64,000 nt of DNA from a phage, in sequence record PX104378.1; one strand, written 5' to 3'. Each line of letters starts with the position of its first letter. Positions within the stretch are counted from its first letter, which is position 1. A model generated the notes under the pieces. The model was not told the DNA's origin and made no database searches. It was given only the letters and a program-made list of their open reading frames with translations. Shown here in pieces: positions 1,859 through 43,833 of this stretch. Position numbers and translations under genes: made by a program.

Positions 1859-3853
1859 ATGACTCTATTATCACCGGGTTTCGAAACGAAAGAAACTACT
1901 CTCTCCACTACCATTGTGCAATCTGCGACTGGTCGCGCGGCGCTGGTAGGTAAATTCCAATGGGGTCCAGCTTTCCAGATTATTCAAGTAACTAATGAAG
2001 TTGAGTTAGTTAATAAATTTGGTCAGCCGGATAATAACACCGCAGACTATTTCATGAGCGGGGCTAACTTCCTCCAGTACGGTAATGATCTGCGTGTTGT
2101 TCGTGTATTGAATAAAGAAAAAGCAAAAAACGCAACTACCCTAGCTGGCAACGTAGAGTTTGAAATCACAAACGAAGGTTCAAACTATAAGGTTGGCGAT
2201 ACAATTAAAGTAAAATACAAAAATTCTGAAATTGAAACTGGCGGAAAGATTACAAAAATTTCGTCGGAAGGTAAGATCAAAGGTATTTTTATTCCAACTG
2301 GTAAACTGATTGCACATGCAAAAACAATCGGGGCATATCCAAAACTGGAAGGATACACCGTAGAAATCATTTCTGATAGCGGTAACTCAGGTGCATCGAT
2401 CACTGTATCTGGAATTGTAGTCGACTCCGGTCTTCTGTTAACTGACATGGAAACTTCCCGCGCCAATATAACGAATCAAACTTTCTTGACTAAACTCAAG
2501 AAGTATGATATGCCAGCTGTAAGCGCGATCTATGCTGGTGAGATTGGCAACTCGCTGGAAGTTGAAATTCTGTCGCGTAGTGCGTTTAAGAACACAGCAC
2601 CGGATCTGACCATGTATCCTTATGGTGGCGAGCGCACCGCAGCACGCAACCTGATTCCATATGCACCGCAGAATGATAATCAATATGCGTTCATTGTTCG
2701 TCGCGATGGTGTTGTGGTAGAATCCTATGTATTGTCCACTCTGAAAGGAGATAAAGACGTCTACGGCAATTCTATCTATATGGACGACTTCTTTTCTCGT
2801 GGTGCTAGCCAGTACATCTATGCAACCGCTCAGGGGTGGGTAGATGGCTTCAGTGGCATTATTTCTCTTGCTGGCGGTGTTTCTGCCAACGAAGCAACCG
2901 CTGGTGTTGGTGCTGACCCGTTTGTTAGTGCGATGATGCAAGGCTGGGATCTGTTTGCTGAACGTGAATCTATTCATGTAAACCTTCTGATTGCTGGTGC
3001 ATGTGCTGGTGAAGGTGATGCATTCTCTACCGTACAGAAACATGCTGTTTCTATCGGTGATGAGCGTCAGGATTGCTTAGTAATGGTTTCTCCGCCGCGT
3101 AGCACTGTTGTTAATATTCCGGTGACTACTGCAATTGATAACCTGATTGCATGGCGCGAAGGTTCGGGAAACTATAATGAAAACAACATGAACATTAATA
3201 CCACTTACGCGGTTATTGATGGTAACTACAAGTATCAGTATGACAAATATAACGATGTAAACCGTTGGGTTCCGTTGGCTGCTGATATTGCTGGCTTGTG
3301 TGCTCGTACTGATGCTGTATCCCAGCCGTGGATGAGTCCGGCAGGTTATAACCGTGGTCAGATCATGAACGTGGTTAAACTGGCTATCGAGCCTCGCAAG
3401 GCACACCGTGATCGTCTGTATCAGGCCGCAATTAACCCGGTAATCGGTGCTGGTGGTGAAGGGTTTATCCTGATGGGTGATAAAACCGCTACGACTGTTC
3501 CTAGCCCGTTTGACCGCATTAACGTTCGTCGTCTGTTTAACATGCTGAAAAAGAATATCGGCGATTCAAGCAAATACAAACTGTTTGAAAACAATGATAA
3601 CTTTACTCGCGCTTCCTTCCGTATGGAGGTTTCGCAATATCTCAGCACGATTCGCTCTCTGGGTGGCATTTATGACTTCCGAGTACAATGCGACACCACG
3701 AACAACACGCCGGATGTAATTGATCGTAACGAATTTGTTGCTAGTATGTTCATCAAACCAGCAAAATCGATCAACTATATCATGCTCAATTTCACTGCTG
3801 TTGCAACTGGTGCTGATTTTGACGAAATTATCGGTCCAGCTAACCAGGCATAA
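1859..3853 (+). CDS. 18: Contractile tail sheath protein (gp18-like)
   Basis: 664 aa vs T4 gp18 659 aa; follows terminase as in T4; ATG with SD; TATAAATA upstream. Confidence 0.92.
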   Translation: MTLLSPGFETKETTLSTTIVQSATGRAALVGKFQWGPAFQIIQVTNEVELVNKFGQPDNNTADYFMSGANFLQYGNDLRVVRVLNKEKAKNATTLAGNVEFEITNEGSNYKVGDTIKVKYKNSEIETGGKITKISSEGKIKGIFIPTGKLIAHAKTIGAYPKLEGYTVEIISDSGNSGASITVSGIVVDSGLLLTDMETSRANITNQTFLTKLKKYDMPAVSAIYAGEIGNSLEVEILSRSAFKNTAPDLTMYPYGGERTAARNLIPYAPQNDNQYAFIVRRDGVVVESYVLSTLKGDKDVYGNSIYMDDFFSRGASQYIYATAQGWVDGFSGIISLAGGVSANEATAGVGADPFVSAMMQGWDLFAERESIHVNLLIAGACAGEGDAFSTVQKHAVSIGDERQDCLVMVSPPRSTVVNIPVTTAIDNLIAWREGSGNYNENNMNINTTYAVIDGNYKYQYDKYNDVNRWVPLAADIAGLCARTDAVSQPWMSPAGYNRGQIMNVVKLAIEPRKAHRDRLYQAAINPVIGAGGEGFILMGDKTATTVPSPFDRINVRRLFNMLKKNIGDSSKYKLFENNDNFTRASFRMEVSQYLSTIRSLGGIYDFRVQCDTTNNTPDVIDRNEFVASMFIKPAKSINYIMLNFTAVATGADFDEIIGPANQA

Positions 3854-35577: not shown

Positions 35578-35912
35578 AATATAGTTCTCCTGAATGGATC
35601 ATCACGTAAATCAATATCTTTTAAGAACTCATCCCATGAATAGCGGATATTGTTCTTAATTCTCCAGATAAGCGCAGGGATTGAACGCTCTCCCATCTGG
35701 AAGTATGGATCGTATGATCCGTATGCCCAATATGCTACTACAATTCCACAATCAGCGCAATAGTATTCTATTTCACTTGCTGGCGACAAAAGTCCATCAA
35801 TATGATCAGTGATCTTGCTTTCGATGTTATGGCTATGACAATCAGGGCAACGGATGCAATGACCTTGTTTATCGTAATTTGACGTTAGCGAATACTTAAA
35901 CAATCTCATCAT
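35574..35912 (-). CDS. Zinc-ribbon protein
   Basis: 112 aa; CIRCPDCHSH ... YYCADCG; ATGA overlap with upstream methyltransferase-like gene. Confidence 0.65.
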   Translation of the reverse strand: MMRLFKYSLTSNYDKQGHCIRCPDCHSHNIESKITDHIDGLLSPASEIEYYCADCGIVVAYWAYGSYDPYFQMGERSIPALIWRIKNNIRYSWDEFLKDIDLRDDPFRRTIL

Positions 35913-36625
35913 AGATCCTTATTGGCTTCAAATACTGCCTTTGCGAATCCTCGCGGGGTAAGTGACCTGATAGTCTTTGTTCTGGTTCCTTTCCCGCCTA
36001 GCTTAGAATGCTGTTTACTGTACCCTTTCTCAATCGGCAACGGTTTCTTTTCTGGCATTATAAAGCCTTGTCCGGTCCATAAGCAAGTCTTTTTCGGGTA
36101 CATATCACGGGCGGCAATATACTCAGGAAACGTAGGATGTATATCATCTTCCGGCAAATAACCGCCATATTCCCACGGGTGGAACATGTAATCAGGCTTA
36201 CGCCACATGCTAGAGATAACGCTTACAGGATTCTCTATCATGTAGGGAACTCCTAGCCATTCACCCAAATAAGCGGTTATTTTAGCTGCCCGTACATCAT
36301 GAACTTGAATTAATGGTCCTTGCTCTCGTTTCTTTCGTTCAAAGTGTGCAGCGCCACTAACAGCTAAATTGGTACACGGTGGGAATGCAAAGATAATATC
36401 CGGTTTCCCCCATTCAAGGTCCATTGCTCTTTCCAGCCAATTCAAATCAATCCATGTGTTTACATAGGTAATGTTTGGATGTTCAAATCGGGTATTATAT
36501 TTTTTGTATGTACCGTGGTCGCCGTCGTCAGCATTGAAGCAGATCACCTTATGACCTGCTTTAGCCCATTCTAGCCCCATTATCCCCGATCCGTCAAAGT
36601 TGCAGAATATTAATTTTTGTTTCAT
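35909..36625 (-). CDS. C5-pyrimidine methyltransferase-fold protein (Dcm-like catalytic core, no obvious target-recognition domain)
   Basis: 238 aa; motif I-like FDGSGIMG, motif IV-like FPPCTNLAVSG (Pro-Cys), ENV-like IENPV. Confidence 0.6.
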   Translation of the reverse strand: MKQKLIFCNFDGSGIMGLEWAKAGHKVICFNADDGDHGTYKKYNTRFEHPNITYVNTWIDLNWLERAMDLEWGKPDIIFAFPPCTNLAVSGAAHFERKKREQGPLIQVHDVRAAKITAYLGEWLGVPYMIENPVSVISSMWRKPDYMFHPWEYGGYLPEDDIHPTFPEYIAARDMYPKKTCLWTGQGFIMPEKKPLPIEKGYSKQHSKLGGKGTRTKTIRSLTPRGFAKAVFEANKDL

Positions 36626-37184: not shown

Positions 37185-37198
37185 CACTTTTTATAAAA

Positions 37199-37366
37199 TT
37201 ATTTGTTAATTTCTGGTGCGTTGCTAGGATAGTAACCTTCTTTAACTCCGAGGTATTTCGCAACCATCCCTACAATCTTCTGTGCTACTACAATGTCAAA
37301 TTTCAGATAATCTTCGCCGTGGGTTTCAATGATATATGCTTCACATGCTGCTTTAGTCTCGAACAT
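37199..37366 (-). CDS. Small early protein (55 aa), copy A of a duplicated gene; not in ORF table
   Basis: MFETKAACEAYIIETHGEDYLKFDIVVAQKIVGMVAKYLGVKEGYYPSNAPEINK; about 85-90 percent identical to 40461..40628; promoter cassette upstream. Confidence 0.6.
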   Translation of the reverse strand: MFETKAACEAYIIETHGEDYLKFDIVVAQKIVGMVAKYLGVKEGYYPSNAPEINK

Positions 37367-37399
37367 TTTGATTCTCCTATTTCGTTTCGGTATGTGTGT

Positions 37400-37428
37400 A
37401 TTATAGGGGATCTCCCGATCCCCGTCAA
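37400..37428 (-). promoter_or_regulatory. Early promoter cassette P3 (TTGACG-N17-TATAAT, palindromic spacer)
   Basis: Upstream of 37199..37366; conserved leader. Confidence 0.55.
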
Positions 37429-37442
37429 CAACTTTTTTAAAA

Positions 37443-38839: not shown

Positions 38840-38885
38840 AATTTGATTCTCCTAGTTAGAAAGTGTATCTCGTTTCGATGGGTGT

Positions 38886-38914
38886 ATTATGCTATACACC
38901 CGATCTTATGTCAA
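38886..38914 (-). promoter_or_regulatory. Early promoter cassette P6 (TTGACA-N17-CATAAT)
   Basis: Upstream of 38552..38839. Confidence 0.55.
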
Positions 38915-38920
38915 CACTTT

Positions 38921-39199
38921 TTATAAAATAATTTTTTGATATTTTTCTATGATGTTCGTGTAATCCACATCAACCGCTATCACCGTTGCTTCGAATCCAC
39001 CGTTTAGCCAATGGCTATGGTCATGATCGTGAAAGAAACCAAGACCAGTACGAAGACCTTCTTTATATTCGGCGCGTACATTTAGATCATCATCGATAAA
39101 CAGATAAAACCATGAATTTTTACTAGGATTGATGATACAACCTTTCAGATTAGGGAGAATATCACGACTAAGAATAAACTTATCACCTACTTTGAACAT
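38921..39199 (-). CDS. HxHxHW-family small protein (paralog 2)
   Basis: Start trimmed to ATG with SD GAGGA (table start is GTG); WFYLFIDDDL ... HDHDHSHWL ... VIAVDV. Confidence 0.65.
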   Translation of the reverse strand: MFKVGDKFILSRDILPNLKGCIINPSKNSWFYLFIDDDLNVRAEYKEGLRTGLGFFHDHDHSHWLNGGFEATVIAVDVDYTNIIEKYQKIIL

Positions 39200-39203
39200 A
39201 ATA

Positions 39204-39524
39204 TTAGTCCTCACTTATAAGGTCAAACCAATTGTTTTTCGCATAATGCTTAATGCGTGCTTGATCTGCTTCTGCTGGTGATAGATTCCATGCAACCACT
39301 ACAACTTCTGACGCATCGTCATCCGTTTCTGATACCCAATGATTATGATTCATACAATTGTTTGCTATCGCGTGAGCAAATGATTTCATCACTGGAGACG
39401 TATAATCATAGTAACGGATTTTCAGATTTTCATCAACGTACAAATAGATCGTATAAGGTTTATATTCAGTAACCAGTAACAGACAGTTACGCAATTCTGG
39501 GAAAATATTTTTAGTTAATTTCAT
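39204..39524 (-). CDS. HxHxHW-family small protein (paralog 3)
   Basis: 106 aa; TIYLYVDENL ... NHNHWV ... VVVAWN; ATGA coupling to upstream gene. Confidence 0.6.
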   Translation of the reverse strand: MKLTKNIFPELRNCLLLVTEYKPYTIYLYVDENLKIRYYDYTSPVMKSFAHAIANNCMNHNHWVSETDDDASEVVVVAWNLSPAEADQARIKHYAKNNWFDLISED

Positions 39525-39727
39525 ATTCTAGTTCTCCGTAATACACGGTAATCCATTTTTTCTTCATACTTTGTATCTTTCCAACACACAATCCCGTTTA
39601 CTGTGCAATCTTTGGAATTGACGAATGATTCATATTGTTCTGCATCTTCCATCATTGCATGAGCGGTCTTTTCATCGAATATATCGCAGATCGCTTTATA
39701 TGCTCGATAATCTTTAAATTTGCTCAT
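39521..39727 (-). CDS. MSKFKDY-family small protein (tandem paralog B)
   Basis: Start trimmed to MSKFKDYRAY; paralogous to adjacent 39730..39939. Confidence 0.55.
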   Translation of the reverse strand: MSKFKDYRAYKAICDIFDEKTAHAMMEDAEQYESFVNSKDCTVNGIVCWKDTKYEEKMDYRVLRRTRI

Positions 39728-39729
39728 AA

Positions 39730-39939
39730 TTAAGACCACTCAAGAGTTTTTGAAAACACATCTATCCATTGTTGAGTATATGCGGTTTCTTTCCATGATA
39801 CAATACCAGTCGAATAATGGTTTTTGTTTCCAGAAAAGGACGGGCATTTTGAGGCATCTTCCATCATCTTTTCGGCGAACTCTGGTTCGTATACTCGCAA
39901 GATCTGTTGATATGCTTTATAATCTTTAAATTTGCTCAT
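39730..39939 (-). CDS. MSKFKDY-family small protein (tandem paralog A)
   Basis: 69 aa; MSKFKDYKAYQQIL..EKMMEDAS; overlaps stop of upstream gene. Confidence 0.55.
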   Translation of the reverse strand: MSKFKDYKAYQQILRVYEPEFAEKMMEDASKCPSFSGNKNHYSTGIVSWKETAYTQQWIDVFSKTLEWS

Positions 39940-40204
39940 AATTGTTAACTACCTTATCAGCTTCTTTTATTGTTTTTACATCAACTGCGATAATCCGTAA
40001 AGGTTCGTCGAAGGTCCACCAATGATCGTGATTATCAGCTTGTGATTTATCACCAAAGGAATCACGAATATCATTTTTACATTTATAGCTAATGTGACCT
40101 TCATAGTCAACATAAAGGTAATTATCAAAAATCGGCGTTTTTAAGATCATACCGAAAAATCTTTCTTTGTGTGTCTTATCCAGCGTTGCAGTAATTCGCA
40201 TCAT
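39926..40204 (-). CDS. HxHxHW-family small protein (paralog 4)
   Basis: 92 aa; NYLYVDYEGH ... DNHDHWW ... IIAVDV. Confidence 0.65.
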   Translation of the reverse strand: MMRITATLDKTHKERFFGMILKTPIFDNYLYVDYEGHISYKCKNDIRDSFGDKSQADNHDHWWTFDEPLRIIAVDVKTIKEADKVVNNYEQI

Positions 40205-40216
40205 AATATATTCCTC

Positions 40217-40396
40217 TTAGAAAGGGATGGTCATTTCTTGAGCTTGTACATTCTCGTTAGGATTAAACTTCATCCAACCGATATTGTCTACCAGCATATG
40301 CACATTTTTATCATATCCTACGTGAGTAGTCAATACTGTATGTGCTTTACCTTCAACGATGATTTCCATGTACTTCTGAACTTCGATAGCTTTCAT
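40217..40396 (-). CDS. Small early protein (59 aa), not in ORF table
   Basis: ATG with SD downstream of promoter-like cassette; MKAIEVQKYMEIIVEGKAHTVLTTHVGYDKNVHMLVDNIGWMKFNPNENVQAQEMTIPF. Confidence 0.5.
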   Translation of the reverse strand: MKAIEVQKYMEIIVEGKAHTVLTTHVGYDKNVHMLVDNIGWMKFNPNENVQAQEMTIPF

Positions 40397-40457: not shown

Positions 40458-40460
40458 CGA

Positions 40461-40628
40461 TTATTTGTTAATTTCCGGTGCGTTGCTTGGATAGTAACCT
40501 TCTTTAACACCCAGATATTTTGCAACCATTCCGGTGATCTTCTGTGCTACTACGATATCGAATTTCAGGTAGTCTTCACCGTGGTTTGCTACAATGTATG
40601 CTTCGCATTCTGCTTTAGTCTGGAACAT
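40461..40628 (-). CDS. Small early protein (55 aa), copy B of duplicated gene
   Basis: Start trimmed to MFQTKAECEAY (table start lies inside the promoter); near-identical to 37199..37366. Confidence 0.6.
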   Translation of the reverse strand: MFQTKAECEAYIVANHGEDYLKFDIVVAQKITGMVAKYLGVKEGYYPSNAPEINK

Positions 40629-40662
40629 TTTTGATTCTCCTATATCTCGTTGGTATGTGTGC

Positions 40663-40692
40663 ATTATAGGGGATCGGTGACCCCCCTGTCAA
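40663..40692 (-). promoter_or_regulatory. Early promoter cassette P8 (TTGACA-N18-TATAAT, GC-rich spacer)
   Basis: Upstream of 40461..40628; conserved leader. Confidence 0.55.
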
Positions 40693-40699
40693 CAACTTT

Positions 40700-41002
40700 T
40701 TATTCTTCGTCTTTATCTTTATATGCGTATTTCATAAATTTGTCTGCCACTTCGTCCGCGTTTTCAGGTTCTACGTCTGACGCTAGGACAACAGCTAGTT
40801 CGGTTTTGTCGTTTCCATCATACCAATGATTATGAGTGTCGTTTTCTTCGATATAAAACGAATCATTTGGATATGGGCGACAATATACGTCTAAATTCCC
40901 ATCGATATAAAAGATCCAATCCGAATACAAAATGATTGTTTTAGCCAGATTTTTATTGTCTCTTACAAAAGGTTCCGCGACAAATAGCTTAGTTTGTTCC
41001 AT
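40700..41002 (-). CDS. HxHxHW-family small protein (paralog 5)
   Basis: Start trimmed to ATG after SD GAGGAG (MEQTKLF); IFYIDGNLDV ... DTHNHWY ... VVLASDV. Confidence 0.6.
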   Translation of the reverse strand: MEQTKLFVAEPFVRDNKNLAKTIILYSDWIFYIDGNLDVYCRPYPNDSFYIEENDTHNHWYDGNDKTELAVVLASDVEPENADEVADKFMKYAYKDKDEE

Positions 41003-41861: not shown

Positions 41862-42338
41862 TTATTTTTCTTGATGCTCGCGCTCGTACTTTTCGAAATA
41901 AAATTCTACTGGCTGGTCGTGGATTGACAGTAAGCCAAAGCGTTTAGCCGCTCGCAACCCCATATTGCGCTGAATGTACTTCTGGAAGTTCTCGCGTATA
42001 CACTTACGCCAGTATTCTAAGCCCATACAGCTTTTATAAAGATTGCATTGCACACACGCCGGATTCATGTTATCAAGTATATCATGCTCCGGTTTATGCA
42101 TTCCTACAACCTTATACTTCCACGATCCATCATCATTACGGGCAATTCGTCCATTTTCATCATAGACTACTTTTGAGCGTCGTAATACTGGTTTGATGTG
42201 GTCTGCGTGCCAGCGATCCCCTAGTTCCTCGCCACAATAGGCACAACGTCCACCATATTTCATTTTCAGGATCTGGCGTTGCTCTTTCTTTGACAATTTT
42301 TTAGGTTTAGGGGCTTTCGCCCCTTCATTATCACACAT
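41862..42338 (-). CDS. HNH endonuclease
   Basis: 158 aa; CAYCGEEL ... HADHIKPV ... CVQCNLYK; 8-nt overlap with DNA ligase stop. Confidence 0.75.
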   Translation of the reverse strand: MCDNEGAKAPKPKKLSKKEQRQILKMKYGGRCAYCGEELGDRWHADHIKPVLRRSKVVYDENGRIARNDDGSWKYKVVGMHKPEHDILDNMNPACVQCNLYKSCMGLEYWRKCIRENFQKYIQRNMGLRAAKRFGLLSIHDQPVEFYFEKYEREHQEK

Positions 42339-43833
42339 CGAATACCTCTTTTACTGTATTTGCAGTGGTCTTGTCGTAGCGAATACGTTTGATGATCGGG
42401 AGAAATAAAGAGAACTCCGGTTCATCTTCTTTACGTGATTTGCTGCGGATATACCCGTTGCATGTCATCTCAATGACTTTTCCAATCAGGTTATGACGGT
42501 CAGCCCATAACATTTCTCGGTCAAGTTCATTTCGACGATCGAACGGAATTACACGTTCGATACCATCATCACCTTTTTCGGTTGTAGTGTCGGTTAATCC
42601 CGATCCGGTGTTAGTCATCATTCGTCCACACGCACTACGGACAGTAAAACCGCCTACCTTATTGGGGTCTTTACTATGCGGATATACATCAACAATTTCC
42701 GCGTCGAAGTCAATCACTTCTTTAAATTTAACCTGATCTTTACTACGGCGATCTTCAAATACACCATGCAGATTTTTAAGGATAATACCTTCTAAGCCCA
42801 TGTTTACATAGCGATGATATACTTCGCGAGCTTCATCGATATTGTTAACTACAGTATTTTCGATTATCTGAACACGAGGATCGTTAAGTTCTTCAACAAT
42901 CTGTTTTAGTTCTTCGAATCGATCTTTATATTGCTTCGTTGCTCTCTCGTTTCCGTAATACACATCACGGTCGATAACATCCCAGACAGTGTAAACAATA
43001 CATTGGGCTTCTTCTTTTGGAATAGTTCCTTTCAGTGATTTGTTGAGGATACCATTTCCGGTCTGACGATCCGCAACAACGGATTCTTTTACTGCTTCCG
43101 CTACTGGCGTTAATGGTATTTCCTCTTCTTCAAATATCCATGACAGAGTACCATCATAAACGCTCTCAACGAAGTTCTGCGCTGGTGTTTGCGAAAGGGT
43201 AGGCATATATACCAATTCGCCATCTAGAACAATTCCACGGCCTCGTAGACGCTCTAAAACAGAAAACAAATCATCCAGCCCCTGGTAGGTATTACCTGAA
43301 CGGGTATAGATTGCTAATGTTTCCCCGTCAATATCAGCCATACCACGAGCGCCATCACTTTTAAGCTGTGCATATGCCGGATATTTGATATTAGCAATAG
43401 CCTTATCAGAATATGACGATGCAAGGTGGCATGGTTGCTGGGGGATCAGTTTCTTCCATACCTTGTTTGCAGTGGTAGCGGAACAACCGCATTCCAGATC
43501 ACGATTCAGGACCATCATTGCAACTTTAGCATCATCTTCTGACAAGCAAGTCAGAGTATCGGTAACTAGCTGTAATGCTGCATTACCAGTTACTTGACGC
43601 GTGGCAAGTTTATTTTTAAAGACCTGCAATGCACCGGATAAAGACAATACAGACGAATAGCGCGATGGTTTATCGTATTTCTTTACGCCAAACGTAACCT
43701 GTTTGCAATATGCCAGATAAAAGCATTCTTTCAGCGTTTCATTGCTTGCAGATTCTTTCAGGATCTTTTCTTTCAGCGATGTTTTGTCGGTCGCTGCAAG
43801 CTGGTTAATGATATTAAGAATTGACATTTTCAC
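42331..43833 (-). CDS. 30: ATP-dependent DNA ligase (gp30-like)
   Basis: 500 aa vs T4 487 aa; adenylation motif KSDGAR (KxDGxR); N-terminus colinear with T4 gp30 as recalled. Confidence 0.9.
   Translation of the reverse strand: MKMSILNIINQLAATDKTSLKEKILKESASNETLKECFYLAYCKQVTFGVKKYDKPSRYSSVLSLSGALQVFKNKLATRQVTGNAALQLVTDTLTCLSEDDAKVAMMVLNRDLECGCSATTANKVWKKLIPQQPCHLASSYSDKAIANIKYPAYAQLKSDGARGMADIDGETLAIYTRSGNTYQGLDDLFSVLERLRGRGIVLDGELVYMPTLSQTPAQNFVESVYDGTLSWIFEEEEIPLTPVAEAVKESVVADRQTGNGILNKSLKGTIPKEEAQCIVYTVWDVIDRDVYYGNERATKQYKDRFEELKQIVEELNDPRVQIIENTVVNNIDEAREVYHRYVNMGLEGIILKNLHGVFEDRRSKDQVKFKEVIDFDAEIVDVYPHSKDPNKVGGFTVRSACGRMMTNTGSGLTDTTTEKGDDGIERVIPFDRRNELDREMLWADRHNLIGKVIEMTCNGYIRSKSRKEDEPEFSLFLPIIKRIRYDKTTANTVKEVFDV

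What the first reader, a model, noticed from the sequence alone, without database searches (positions are those of the whole stretch)
39521..39939. Tandem MSKFKDY paralogs inside the His-cluster gene array
Two adjacent 68/69-aa genes begin MSKFKDYRAYKAICDIFDEKTAHAMMEDAEQYESF and MSKFKDYKAYQQILRVYEPEFAEKMMEDASKCPSF, then diverge. Together with the His-cluster family and the duplicated 55-aa gene this marks the 37-41.6 kb interval as a duplication-prone diversifying locus.
Basis: seen in the sequence. Interest (0 to 1): 0.4.

Follow-up and report, generated by a model that had tools for sequence, protein, structure and literature searches.

The report
Tandem paralogs of small phage gene
Two neighbouring genes of about 70 codons in an RB49-like (T4-type) coliphage are real, ancient duplicates of an uncharacterised early-gene family; this is an ordinary feature of an already described hypervariable genome region, and the second copy carries a private frameshift in this genome.

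Summary
On the minus strand, copy A (39730-39939, 69 aa) and copy B (39521-39727, 68 aa as read) are homologous (46% identity, E=7e-18). Both match PHROG 8471, which has no known function.

The window is a Krischvirus (RB49-like T4-type phage). The pair are orthologs of RB49 ORF202/ORF201. They lie in the ligase-alt hyperplastic region already described with its PeSL promoter/stem-loop cassettes.

The homology is full-length, not N-terminal only. B's divergent tail comes from a +1 frameshift in an A-run (A6 here, A5 in relatives). No other public record shares it.

The duplication is old (dS saturated). A is conserved and strongly constrained (pN/pS 0.095). B is the exchangeable copy:
- deep mosaic alleles confined to a gene-sized divergence island
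- absent in JSE and KMB43
- fused with A in one metagenomic contig

The AF2 model is a confident four-helix domain with no significant PDB match. Distant homologs sit at the left-end early region of T7-like phages, near a SAM lyase. The likely role is an immediate-early, host-directed small protein; this is inferred, not shown.

Ordinary and largely already known; low interest.

The parts
39730..39939 (-). Copy A, 69 aa (MSKFKDYKAYQQILRVY...TLEWS). Ortholog of RB49p202 / phi1p202. The conserved paralog.
   Evidence: ORF. phrog_8471 E=1.1e-36. Present in 57 phage records at 88-100% aa identity. pN/pS 0.095 over 16 distinct sequences. AF2 pLDDT 94.4, four helices.
39521..39727 (-). Copy B as read in this window, 68 aa. 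Ortholog of phi1p201 / JK32_00201 (allele class B1). Residues 58-68 are out of frame.
   Evidence: ORF. 100% identical to JK32 copy B over residues 1-57 only. phrog_8471 E=1e-29, matching residues 1-57.
39511..39727 (-). Extent copy B would have in the ancestral frame: 71 aa, ending ...KWITVYYGELEYEIN, with a 14-nt overlap onto the next gene.
   Evidence: Deleting one A restores a protein identical to JK32 copy B. The intact C-terminus is conserved in a distant podovirus homolog: P0012 aligns through its residue 79 with the B1 alleles.
39556..39561 (-). Homopolymer run (A6 on the coding strand) that causes the +1 frameshift in copy B. It is A5 in relatives and A4 in metagenomic contig L028.
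   Evidence: The nine best phage matches all show a 1-nt gap here. There is no exact match to the A6 version in IMG/VR. It is the only uncompensated in-CDS frameshift in 19.3 kb colinear with JK32.
39919..39943 (-). 25-nt 5' segment of copy A (AATT + ATGAGCAAATTTAAAGATTAT), identical to that of copy B. It also holds the stop codon of the upstream H-x-H-W gene.
   Evidence: (longest identical run 25; P about 0.009).
39707..39731 (-). The matching 25-nt 5' segment of copy B. A's stop codon TAA lies 2 nt before B's ATG.
39926..40204 (-). Upstream gene, 92 aa, H-x-H-W ('His-cluster') family. Its last 14 nt overlap A's start.
   Evidence: phrog_15972. AF2 pLDDT 86.
39204..39524 (-). Downstream gene, 106 aa, H-x-H-W family. 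Its ATG overlaps B's stop (ATGA as read).
   Evidence: phrog_9345.
38921..39199 (-). Last gene of the unit, 92 aa, H-x-H-W family.
   Evidence: phrog_17255.
40630..40704 (-). PeSL cassette upstream of the unit. It has a perfect sigma-70 consensus (TTGACA-18-TATAAT at 40692-40663) with a G/C stem-loop in the spacer. This is the inferred early promoter for the 55-aa, 59-aa, His-92, A, B, His-106 and His-92' genes.
   Evidence: Repeat family D2. Promoter scan 12/12. PeSL definition from PMC2839356 and PMC4122927.
38865..38934 (-). Next PeSL downstream: the distal boundary of the unit and the right-hand boundary of the cassette replaced in phage JSE.
   Evidence: Repeat family D1. Promoter 11/12 at 38914-38886. 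JSE homology resumes at 38956.

Best explanation
SHOWN
- The two ORFs are real protein-coding genes and full-length paralogs of one small family (PHROG 8471).
- They lie head to tail in the ligase-alt hyperplastic region of a Krischvirus (RB49-like T4-type coliphage).
- They are packed tightly with flanking H-x-H-W genes: a 14-nt overlap, a 2-nt gap and an ATGA overlap. The nearest strong promoter is a PeSL sigma-70 promoter about 0.7 kb upstream.
- The duplication is ancient.
- Copy A is kept in every Krischvirus record that carries the family (57 records) and is under strong purifying selection.
- Copy B is the exchangeable, dispensable copy. It has several deeply diverged and mosaic alleles confined to a gene-sized divergence island. 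It is missing in JSE and KMB43, and fused with A by unequal crossover in one metagenomic contig.
- In this window B is truncated by a +1 slip in an A-run, which replaces the conserved last helix.

INFERRED
- The products are soluble four-helix proteins of about 70 aa, made immediately after infection by host RNA polymerase.
- They act by binding a host protein (host takeover or counter-defence). A and B would provide two specificities on one scaffold: a conserved hydrophobic core with a variable surface and charge.
- Variation at B arises by homologous recombination in conserved flanks and between the paralogs' near-identical 5' ends, not by fresh duplication.
For: Paralogy: BLASTP E=7e-18. 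Both copies, and all distant homologs tested, match phrog_8471.

Identity of locus: 90-99% DNA identity to 59 Krischvirus records. RB49p202/p201 and phi1p202/p201 are syntenic. The locus lies between DNA ligase and alt. PeSL repeats flank it, as published.

Real genes:
- A pN/pS 0.095; B1 0.23; B2 0.13.
- Homologs occur in unrelated phage families.

Old duplication: A vs B dN about 0.5 with dS saturated.

B as exchangeable cassette:
- The B CDS is 55-73% identical to RB49, Skers and G2248, inside flanks of 92-100%.
- Allele classes and absence in JSE and KMB43.
- JSE cassette replacement, bounded by the A/B junction and a PeSL.
- Mosaic alleles P0014, P0015 and P0019.
- A/B hybrid in L028, and an A-like conversion tract in L025's B.
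- piN 0.151 for B vs 0.038 for A in the same 19 genomes.

Frameshift.

Fold: AF2 pLDDT 94.4, pTM 0.82, helices 8-14, 19-30, 43-46, 55-66. BFVD neighbours with TM 0.77-0.79 are uncharacterised T7-like phage proteins.

Early expression and host-directed role (contextual evidence only):
- Perfect sigma-70 promoter at 40692-40663, and no convincing promoter directly before A or B.
- Podovirus homologs are among the first genes at the left genome end, a few genes (2 to 4) upstream of a SAM lyase.
- The proteins are hydrophilic with no TM segment, and pI ranges from 4.6 to 9.1 across members.
Against: - There is no direct evidence of transcription, translation or any phenotype.
- Neighbours of the podovirus homologs are themselves unannotated, apart from the SAM lyase.
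- Shine-Dalgarno motifs before A and B are weak and far from the ATG, so translation depends on assumed coupling.
- dN/dS never exceeds 1 (maximum about 0.68 regionally). B's diversity could be relaxed constraint plus recombination rather than an arms race.
- The frameshift could be a single sequencing error.
- The L028 hybrid comes from a 1-kb short-read contig.
Confidence: 0.75

Rival explanations
1. The frameshift in copy B is a sequencing or assembly error. The real phage encodes the intact 71-aa B1 protein, so the window has two fully functional paralogs.
For: The change is a single base in a homopolymer (A5 to A6), the commonest kind of sequencing error. Removing it restores a protein identical to JK32 copy B. 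No other record or IMG/VR contig shares it.
Against: Across 19.3 kb colinear with JK32, this is the only uncompensated frameshift inside a CDS, so the assembly is not generally error-prone at homopolymers. The same run is independently A4 in contig L028. B is demonstrably dispensable, being absent in JSE and KMB43.
Confidence: 0.35
2. The pair is a recent or ongoing tandem amplification ('accordion' expansion) under current selection, as 'duplication-prone locus' implies.
For: The arrangement is head to tail with a 212-nt period and a 25-nt identical 5' segment. Other paralogs lie nearby.
Against: Synonymous sites between A and B are saturated, and nucleotide identity is only 59%. Both copies are at the same position in RB49, phi1 and about 54 other records. 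No genome surveyed has three or more copies. The copy-number change observed is loss (JSE, KMB43, L028).
Confidence: 0.04
3. A and B work as obligate partners of the flanking H-x-H-W proteins (cognate pairs such as inhibitor/enzyme or toxin/antidote). The interleaved array would then be one functional system.
For: The order is His-92, A, B, His-106, His-92', with overlapping or abutting stop and start codons in one transcription unit. In JSE, A is again directly followed by an H-x-H-W gene.
Against: In the distant RB49-like contig L010 the single family member is not next to an H-x-H-W gene. Podovirus loci that carry the family have no H-x-H-W ORF at all. The H-x-H-W family is confined to Krischvirus-like contigs, while PHROG 8471 is not. 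A persists when B and the adjacent His gene are swapped.
Confidence: 0.1
4. Copy B is sensed by, or targets, a variable host defence system. Its allele turnover, deletions and recurrent A-run frameshifts would be escape or adaptation events in an arms race.
For: There is a gene-sized divergence island with deep, mosaic alleles. B is absent in two phages. Independent A4 and A6 length variants occur at one run. The family has an immediate-early position next to an anti-restriction-type SAM lyase in podoviruses.
Against: No dN/dS above 1 anywhere. No link to any known defence or anti-defence family. The same pattern is expected for a weakly selected accessory gene in a recombination-rich region. 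Only two frameshift events are known, and one may be an error.
Confidence: 0.25
5. The similarity is chance, or the ORFs are non-coding.
For: The ORFs are short, have no Pfam domain and have weak ribosome-binding sites.
Against: E=7e-18 between the copies. Strong purifying selection. Homologs in Autographiviridae and metagenomes with conserved core residues A22, M25, D28, A29, F35, I46, V47, W49, T52 and W58. A confident AF2 fold.
Confidence: 0.01

Closest known systems
RB49 ORF202/ORF201 (RB49p202, RB49p201), phi1 ORF202/ORF201 and JK32_00202/00201: annotated hypothetical proteins of Krischvirus
   Same: Orthologous genes at the same position between DNA ligase/HNH and alt, in the same order and orientation. 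Window A is identical to JK32 A. Window B is identical to JK32 B over residues 1-57.
   Different: RB49's A lacks the stop and runs 85 aa into B. RB49's B is the other deep allele (58% aa identity) with an MGIQSQFKDY N-terminus. The window's B carries a private +1 frameshift.
PHROG 8471 (phage orthologous group, function unknown)
   Same: Both copies and every distant homolog tested match it.
   Different: This is only a sequence cluster; it says nothing about mechanism. The paralogy, the allele structure of B and the podovirus early-region context are not part of its description.
PeSL + ORFan cassettes of the RB49/phi1 hyperplastic regions (Arbiol et al. 2010, PMC2839356; Comeau et al. 2014, PMC4122927)
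   Same: Same genome region (the ORF192-211 cluster), and the same near-perfect sigma-70 promoter with a G/C stem-loop repeated between small ORFs. One boundary of the JSE replacement lies in a PeSL.
   Different: Neither A nor B has its own PeSL. They sit inside a seven-gene unit between two PeSLs. B's allele boundaries coincide with the gene's own start and stop, and inter-paralog 5' homology is also used. Neither paper mentions paralogs or duplications here.
Class I (immediate-early) accessory genes at the left end of T7-like phages, around the T3-type SAM lyase
   Same: Distant family members are roughly the third gene from the left end, a few genes (2 to 4) upstream of a SAM lyase, in Yersinia phage ISAO8 and metagenomic relatives. 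The Krischvirus copies are likewise driven by host-type early promoters.
   Different: No member has been characterised. There is no sequence or fold relation to Ocr, SAM lyase, gp0.7, gp2 or other known T7 early proteins.
[not shown]
   Same: A compact bundle of four to five short helices of similar size.

Membership tests
PHROG 8471 | Significant full-length match to the family HMM | tested here: met
   A: E=1.1e-36, residues 1-68. B: E=1e-29, residues 1-57 (the tail is frameshifted). All 10 members of alignment A3 match.
Krischvirus ORF202/ORF201 ortholog pair | Same syntenic position (ligase-HNH ... alt) and near-identical sequence | tested here: met
   Copy A is 88-100% identical in 57 records. 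Copy B is 96-100% identical (residues 1-57) in 22 records.
PeSL-ORFan cassette (Arbiol 2010) | Located in a hyperplastic region of a T4-type genome | tested here: met
   Lies between gene 30 (ligase) and alt. This is the ORF192-211 cluster named in PMC2839356.
PeSL-ORFan cassette (Arbiol 2010) | ORF immediately preceded by its own PeSL (sigma-70 promoter plus G/C stem-loop) | tested here: not met
   The nearest PeSLs are at 40630-40704 and 38865-38934. Before A there is only a 9/12 match that overlaps its start codon.
PeSL-ORFan cassette (Arbiol 2010) | Excision as PeSL mini-circles | not testable with these tools
   Needs inverse PCR on infected cells.
Recent tandem (accordion) amplification | Near-identical copies and variable copy number above two | tested here: not met
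   59% nt identity with dS saturated. Copy number is 2, 1 or a 1-gene hybrid, never more than 2.
Gene under positive diversifying selection | dN/dS > 1 overall or in a region | tested here: not met
   Pairwise omega is 0.11-0.42. The regional maximum is 0.68. Site models were not run: too few alleles, and recombination is present.
DNA-mimic anti-restriction proteins (Ocr/ArdA type) | Strongly and consistently acidic surface | tested here: not met
   Net charge ranges from -6.4 to +2.7 across members, and A is about neutral. No Pfam or PDB match.
Known defence-system proteins (PADLOC) | HMM match | tested here: not met
   No hit at E up to 1. No anti-defence HMM library was available, so membership of known anti-defence families is only partly tested.
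Cognate pair with flanking H-x-H-W proteins | Conserved co-occurrence or adjacency across lineages | tested here: not met
   Not adjacent in L010. No H-x-H-W ORFs in four podovirus loci that carry the family.
[not shown]
   [not shown]

The most novel reading that the evidence does not exclude
PHROG 8471 is an uncharacterised immediate-early effector family shared by T4-like and T7-like enterobacterial phages, and it engages a variable host defence or host factor. In Krischvirus the duplicated copy B is then the arms-race partner. It would be repeatedly swapped between deep alleles, converted by copy A, deleted, or switched off at a short A-run (A4/A5/A6) when its product becomes a liability, for example as a trigger of abortive infection.
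Probability: 0.25. Interest if true: 0.5.

Novelty: already known. Interest (0 to 1): 0.2.

Why it matters
As it stands, this is a clean worked example of how small accessory genes evolve in a T4-type hyperplastic region. One paralog is frozen. The other is traded as a gene-sized allele cassette, converted by its neighbour, lost, or frameshifted.

It also corrects two things an annotator would get wrong. B's C-terminus in this genome is out of frame. And the family is not Krischvirus-specific: it extends to the left-end early region of T7-like phages.

If the family turns out to be a host-takeover or counter-defence factor, the natural series would be ready-made material for mapping specificity. 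That series is B1, B2, mosaic alleles, delta-B (JSE, KMB43) and the frameshifted B found here.

Tried and rejected
- Pfam, NCBIfam, PADLOC and PDB-sequence searches gave nothing significant for A, B or the family profile.
- The afdb50 Foldseek library was unavailable.
- BFVD returned only uncharacterised phage proteins.
- The exhaustive profile search returned a 1862-aa hit, P0011. It is a low-complexity coiled-coil repeat protein and was discarded as compositional.
- IMG/VR held only two Krischvirus loci.
- PHROG scans of the neighbours of the podovirus homologs found only 'unknown function' families plus the SAM lyase, so guilt by association is weak.
- Literature searches found the two PeSL papers but nothing on ORF201/202, and no Krischvirus transcriptomics or function.

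Considered and rejected, with reasons in the rival explanations: recent amplification, chance similarity, and obligate partnership with H-x-H-W proteins.

Programmed +1 frameshifting at the A6 run is mechanistically possible, because tRNA-Lys can re-pair on AAA. I found no evidence for it, and every relative encodes the protein in one frame.

Full report
**What is there**

The finding's coordinates hold two head-to-tail ORFs on the minus strand:
- Copy A, 39730-39939: 69 aa, MSKFKDYKAYQQILRVYEPEFAEKMMEDASKCPSFSGNKNHYSTGIVSWKETAYTQQWIDVFSKTLEWS.
- Copy B, 39521-39727: 68 aa as read, MSKFKDYRAYKAICDIFDEKTAHAMMEDAEQYESFVNSKDCTVNGIVCWKDTKYEEKMDYRVLRRTRI.

BLASTP gives 26/57 identities with no gaps, E=7e-18. 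Both match phrog_8471, 'unknown function' (E=1.1e-36 and 1e-29). Nothing in Pfam matches.

**Where it is**

The surrounding 5 kb is 90-99% identical to 59 Krischvirus records, the RB49-like T4-type coliphages. The closest is Shigella phage JK32 at 97.7%.

The genes lie between DNA ligase (gp30) plus an HNH gene and the alt ADP-ribosyltransferase. They are orthologs of RB49p202/p201 and phi1 ORF202/ORF201.

This is the ORF192-211 hyperplastic region (HPR) described by Arbiol et al. 2010 (PMC2839356). It is populated by PeSL cassettes, which combine a near-perfect sigma-70 promoter with a G/C stem-loop. Comeau et al. 2014 extended the description (PMC4122927).

I recover these cassettes as repeat families D1/D2 at about 37135, 37367, 37725, 38085, 38865, 40630 and 41787. 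They carry 11-12/12 promoter matches on the minus strand.

**Anatomy of the transcription unit**

There is no convincing promoter directly before A or B. The nearest strong one is TTGACA-18-TATAAT at 40692-40663.

The inferred unit contains, in order:
1. the 55-aa gene (40461-40628)
2. the 59-aa gene (40217-40396)
3. His-92 (39926-40204)
4. A
5. B
6. His-106 (39204-39524)
7. His-92' (38921-39199)

It ends at the PeSL at 38865-38934.

The junctions are tight. His-92's stop lies 14 nt inside A. A's TAA is 2 nt before B's ATG. B's stop overlaps His-106's ATG. Shine-Dalgarno motifs are weak, so translational coupling is likely; this is an inference.

**The 'then diverge' part is a frameshift**

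tblastn with copy B found 22 records at 96-100% identity, but every alignment stopped at residue 57.

JK32 has GAAGAAAAATGG (A5) where the window has GAAGAAAAAATGG (A6; plus-strand T-run at 39556-39561). JK32 therefore reads ...KYEEKWITVYYGELEYEIN, 71 aa. Removing one A makes the window's B identical to JK32's.

That native C-terminus aligns with A's ...YTQQWIDVFSKTLEWS. It includes the nearly invariant family residue W58. It is also conserved in a distant podovirus homolog: P0012 aligns through its residue 79 with the B1 alleles.

The A6 variant is private to this genome:
- The nine best phage matches all show a 1-nt gap at this site.
- IMG/VR has no exact match to the A6 version.
- In 19.3 kb colinear with JK32, it is the only uncompensated frameshift inside a CDS. 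The assembly is therefore not generally error-prone, although a single error cannot be excluded.

The same run is A4 in a metagenomic contig (L028), which shifts the frame the other way.

**Selection and age**

I extracted A and B from the window, 16 phage or IMG/VR loci and 4 metagenomic loci, and used Nei-Gojobori counts.

| Comparison | Result |
|---|---|
| A orthologs | pN/pS 0.095 over 16 distinct sequences |
| B1 alleles | pN/pS 0.23 |
| B2 alleles | pN/pS 0.13 |
| B1 vs B2 | dN 0.33, dS 1.4 |
| A vs B | dN about 0.5, dS saturated |

Both are therefore real, constrained genes, and the duplication is old.

In the same 19 genomes, A has a mean pairwise aa identity of 0.93 (piN 0.038, piS 0.30). 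B has 0.75, with a minimum of 0.55 (piN 0.151, piS 0.40). Regional pN/pS in B peaks at 0.63-0.68, in the loop before the IV.W motif and in the C-terminus. It never exceeds 1.

**B is an exchangeable cassette**

A sliding-window comparison shows flanks at 92-100% identity and a sharply bounded island of 55-73% identity that coincides with the B CDS. This holds against RB49, Skers and G2248.

Allele classes of B:
- B1, the window type: 22 records.
- B2, the RB49 type: 32 records. The N-terminus is either MGIQSQFKDY (with a MSIQSQFKDY variant) or, in four records, MSKFKDY.
- Absent: JSE and KMB43.

Further evidence of exchange:
- In JSE the segment 39720-38957 (B, His-106 and His-92') is replaced by a different cassette. 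One boundary is at the A/B junction TTAATTATGA and the other is in the PeSL at 38865-38934.
- Metagenomes add mosaic alleles. P0019 combines a B1 N-terminal half with a B2 C-terminal half. P0014 and P0015 are further mosaics.
- L025's B carries an A-like tract at codons 9-13.
- L028 has a single hybrid gene, with A's upstream context and first 13 codons fused to a B body. This is the product expected from unequal A x B crossover. It comes from a 1-kb short-read contig, so treat it with some caution.
- In the window, A and B share a 25-nt identical run at the 5' end against 59% identity overall (P about 0.009). That fits micro-conversion, or shared constraint on the initiation region.

RB49-type A alleles have lost the stop codon and extend to 85 aa across B's start.

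**The family beyond Krischvirus**

The first searches found almost only Krischvirus sequences.

A profile search of 1.84 billion representatives gave nine true hits plus one coiled-coil false positive, P0011. A second profile search gave 31 clusters.

Where the distant members sit:
- One member (P0009) is a single copy in the same ligase-alt HPR of a more distant RB49-like contig.
- Most others are on podovirus-type contigs of about 42-45 kb. These are among the first genes at the left end, a few genes (2 to 4) upstream of a SAM lyase. Examples are L012, L022, L023 and Yersinia phage ISAO8 gp03.
- One is in Enterobacter phage SDFMU_Pec, at 3.7 kb in the genome.

All of these match phrog_8471. 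Conserved positions are A22, M25, D28, A29, F35, I46, V47, W49, T52 and W58.

**Structure and properties**

AF2 on a 5-sequence alignment gives pLDDT 94.4 and pTM 0.82, with helices 8-14, 19-30, 43-46 and 55-66. The window's frameshift removes the last of these helices.

- BFVD: the closest non-self neighbours are uncharacterised proteins of the T7-like phages phiAS7 and fHe-Yen3-01, with TM 0.77-0.79.
- The proteins are hydrophilic with no TM segment. pI ranges from 4.6 to 9.1 across members. That argues against a conserved DNA-mimic or DNA-binding surface, and for a stable core with a variable surface.

**Relation to the His-cluster neighbours**

Adjacency with A/B is not conserved in L010. 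No H-x-H-W ORFs occur in the podovirus loci. I therefore do not treat them as obligate partners.

**Interpretation**

Shown:
- The pair are real, full-length, ancient tandem paralogs in a known HPR.
- A is conserved. B is an exchangeable, dispensable copy that is frameshifted here.
- Variation arises by recombination in conserved flanks, at a PeSL, and between the paralogs.

Inferred, at moderate to low confidence:
- They are immediate-early, host-directed small binding proteins (host takeover or counter-defence).
- A and B provide two specificities.

The more adventurous reading is that B is an arms-race target or trigger that gets switched off at the A-run. I give that about 25%.

**Verdict**

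The genes, their family cluster and the plasticity of the region are already on record. The additions here are:
- the frameshift correction
- the asymmetry between A and B
- the evidence for inter-paralog recombination
- the link to T7-like early regions

Interest is low (0.2).

Noticed in passing
window 37198-37441 and 40460-40704 (minus strand): A whole PeSL plus 55-aa-ORF cassette is present twice: a 172-nt segment at 85% identity plus the adjacent PeSL copy. The 55-aa proteins are MFETKAACEAY... and MFQTKAECEAY.... This looks like a duplicated PeSL-ORFan module of the kind proposed to move via mini-circles.
   Followed up: partly
[not shown]
   Followed up: partly
window 39926-40204 compared with phage Phi1 (L014): Phi1 carries a deeply divergent allele of the His-92 gene. 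Identity is 45-78% in 60-nt windows, inside flanks of about 98%. This is a second gene-sized allele island, directly next to copy A.
   Followed up: no
L028 (Logan SRR21291472 contig), 524-721: A single A/B hybrid gene replaces the tandem pair: A's upstream context and codons 1-13 fused to a B-type body. Its A-run is A4, so its C-terminus is frameshifted in the opposite direction to the window's.
   Followed up: partly
P0005 (66 aa; on a 123-kb contig, sources Logan and ENA): A copy-A variant that is out of frame after about residue 40 (…SFSGNKKSLFYWDCIVERN…). Copy A can therefore also appear frameshifted in some assemblies. I did not check whether this is a real mutation or an error.
   Followed up: no
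L003 (RB49) 3001-3258; also Makalu_003, FL37 and L026: In RB49-type genomes copy A has lost its stop codon. It extends to 85 aa and overlaps the first 41 nt of copy B in another frame.
   Followed up: partly
window 41862-42338 (minus strand): An HNH endonuclease-like ORF of 158 aa sits between the DNA ligase gene (42331-43833) and the hyperplastic region. It is conserved in RB49, JSE, JK32 and the distant contig L010.
   Followed up: no
window 35909-36625 (minus strand): A 238-aa ORF annotated in relatives as a putative C-5 cytosine DNA methylase, at the alt-proximal end of the same hyperplastic region.
   Followed up: no
L012 3212-3610; L022/L023 genes next to the family member: In the podovirus relatives the PHROG 8471 gene is followed by either a pentapeptide-repeat protein (L012) or a DUF7267 protein (L022, L023). 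A 262-277-aa ORF and a SAM lyase come next. This is a conserved but unannotated immediate-early block.
   Followed up: partly
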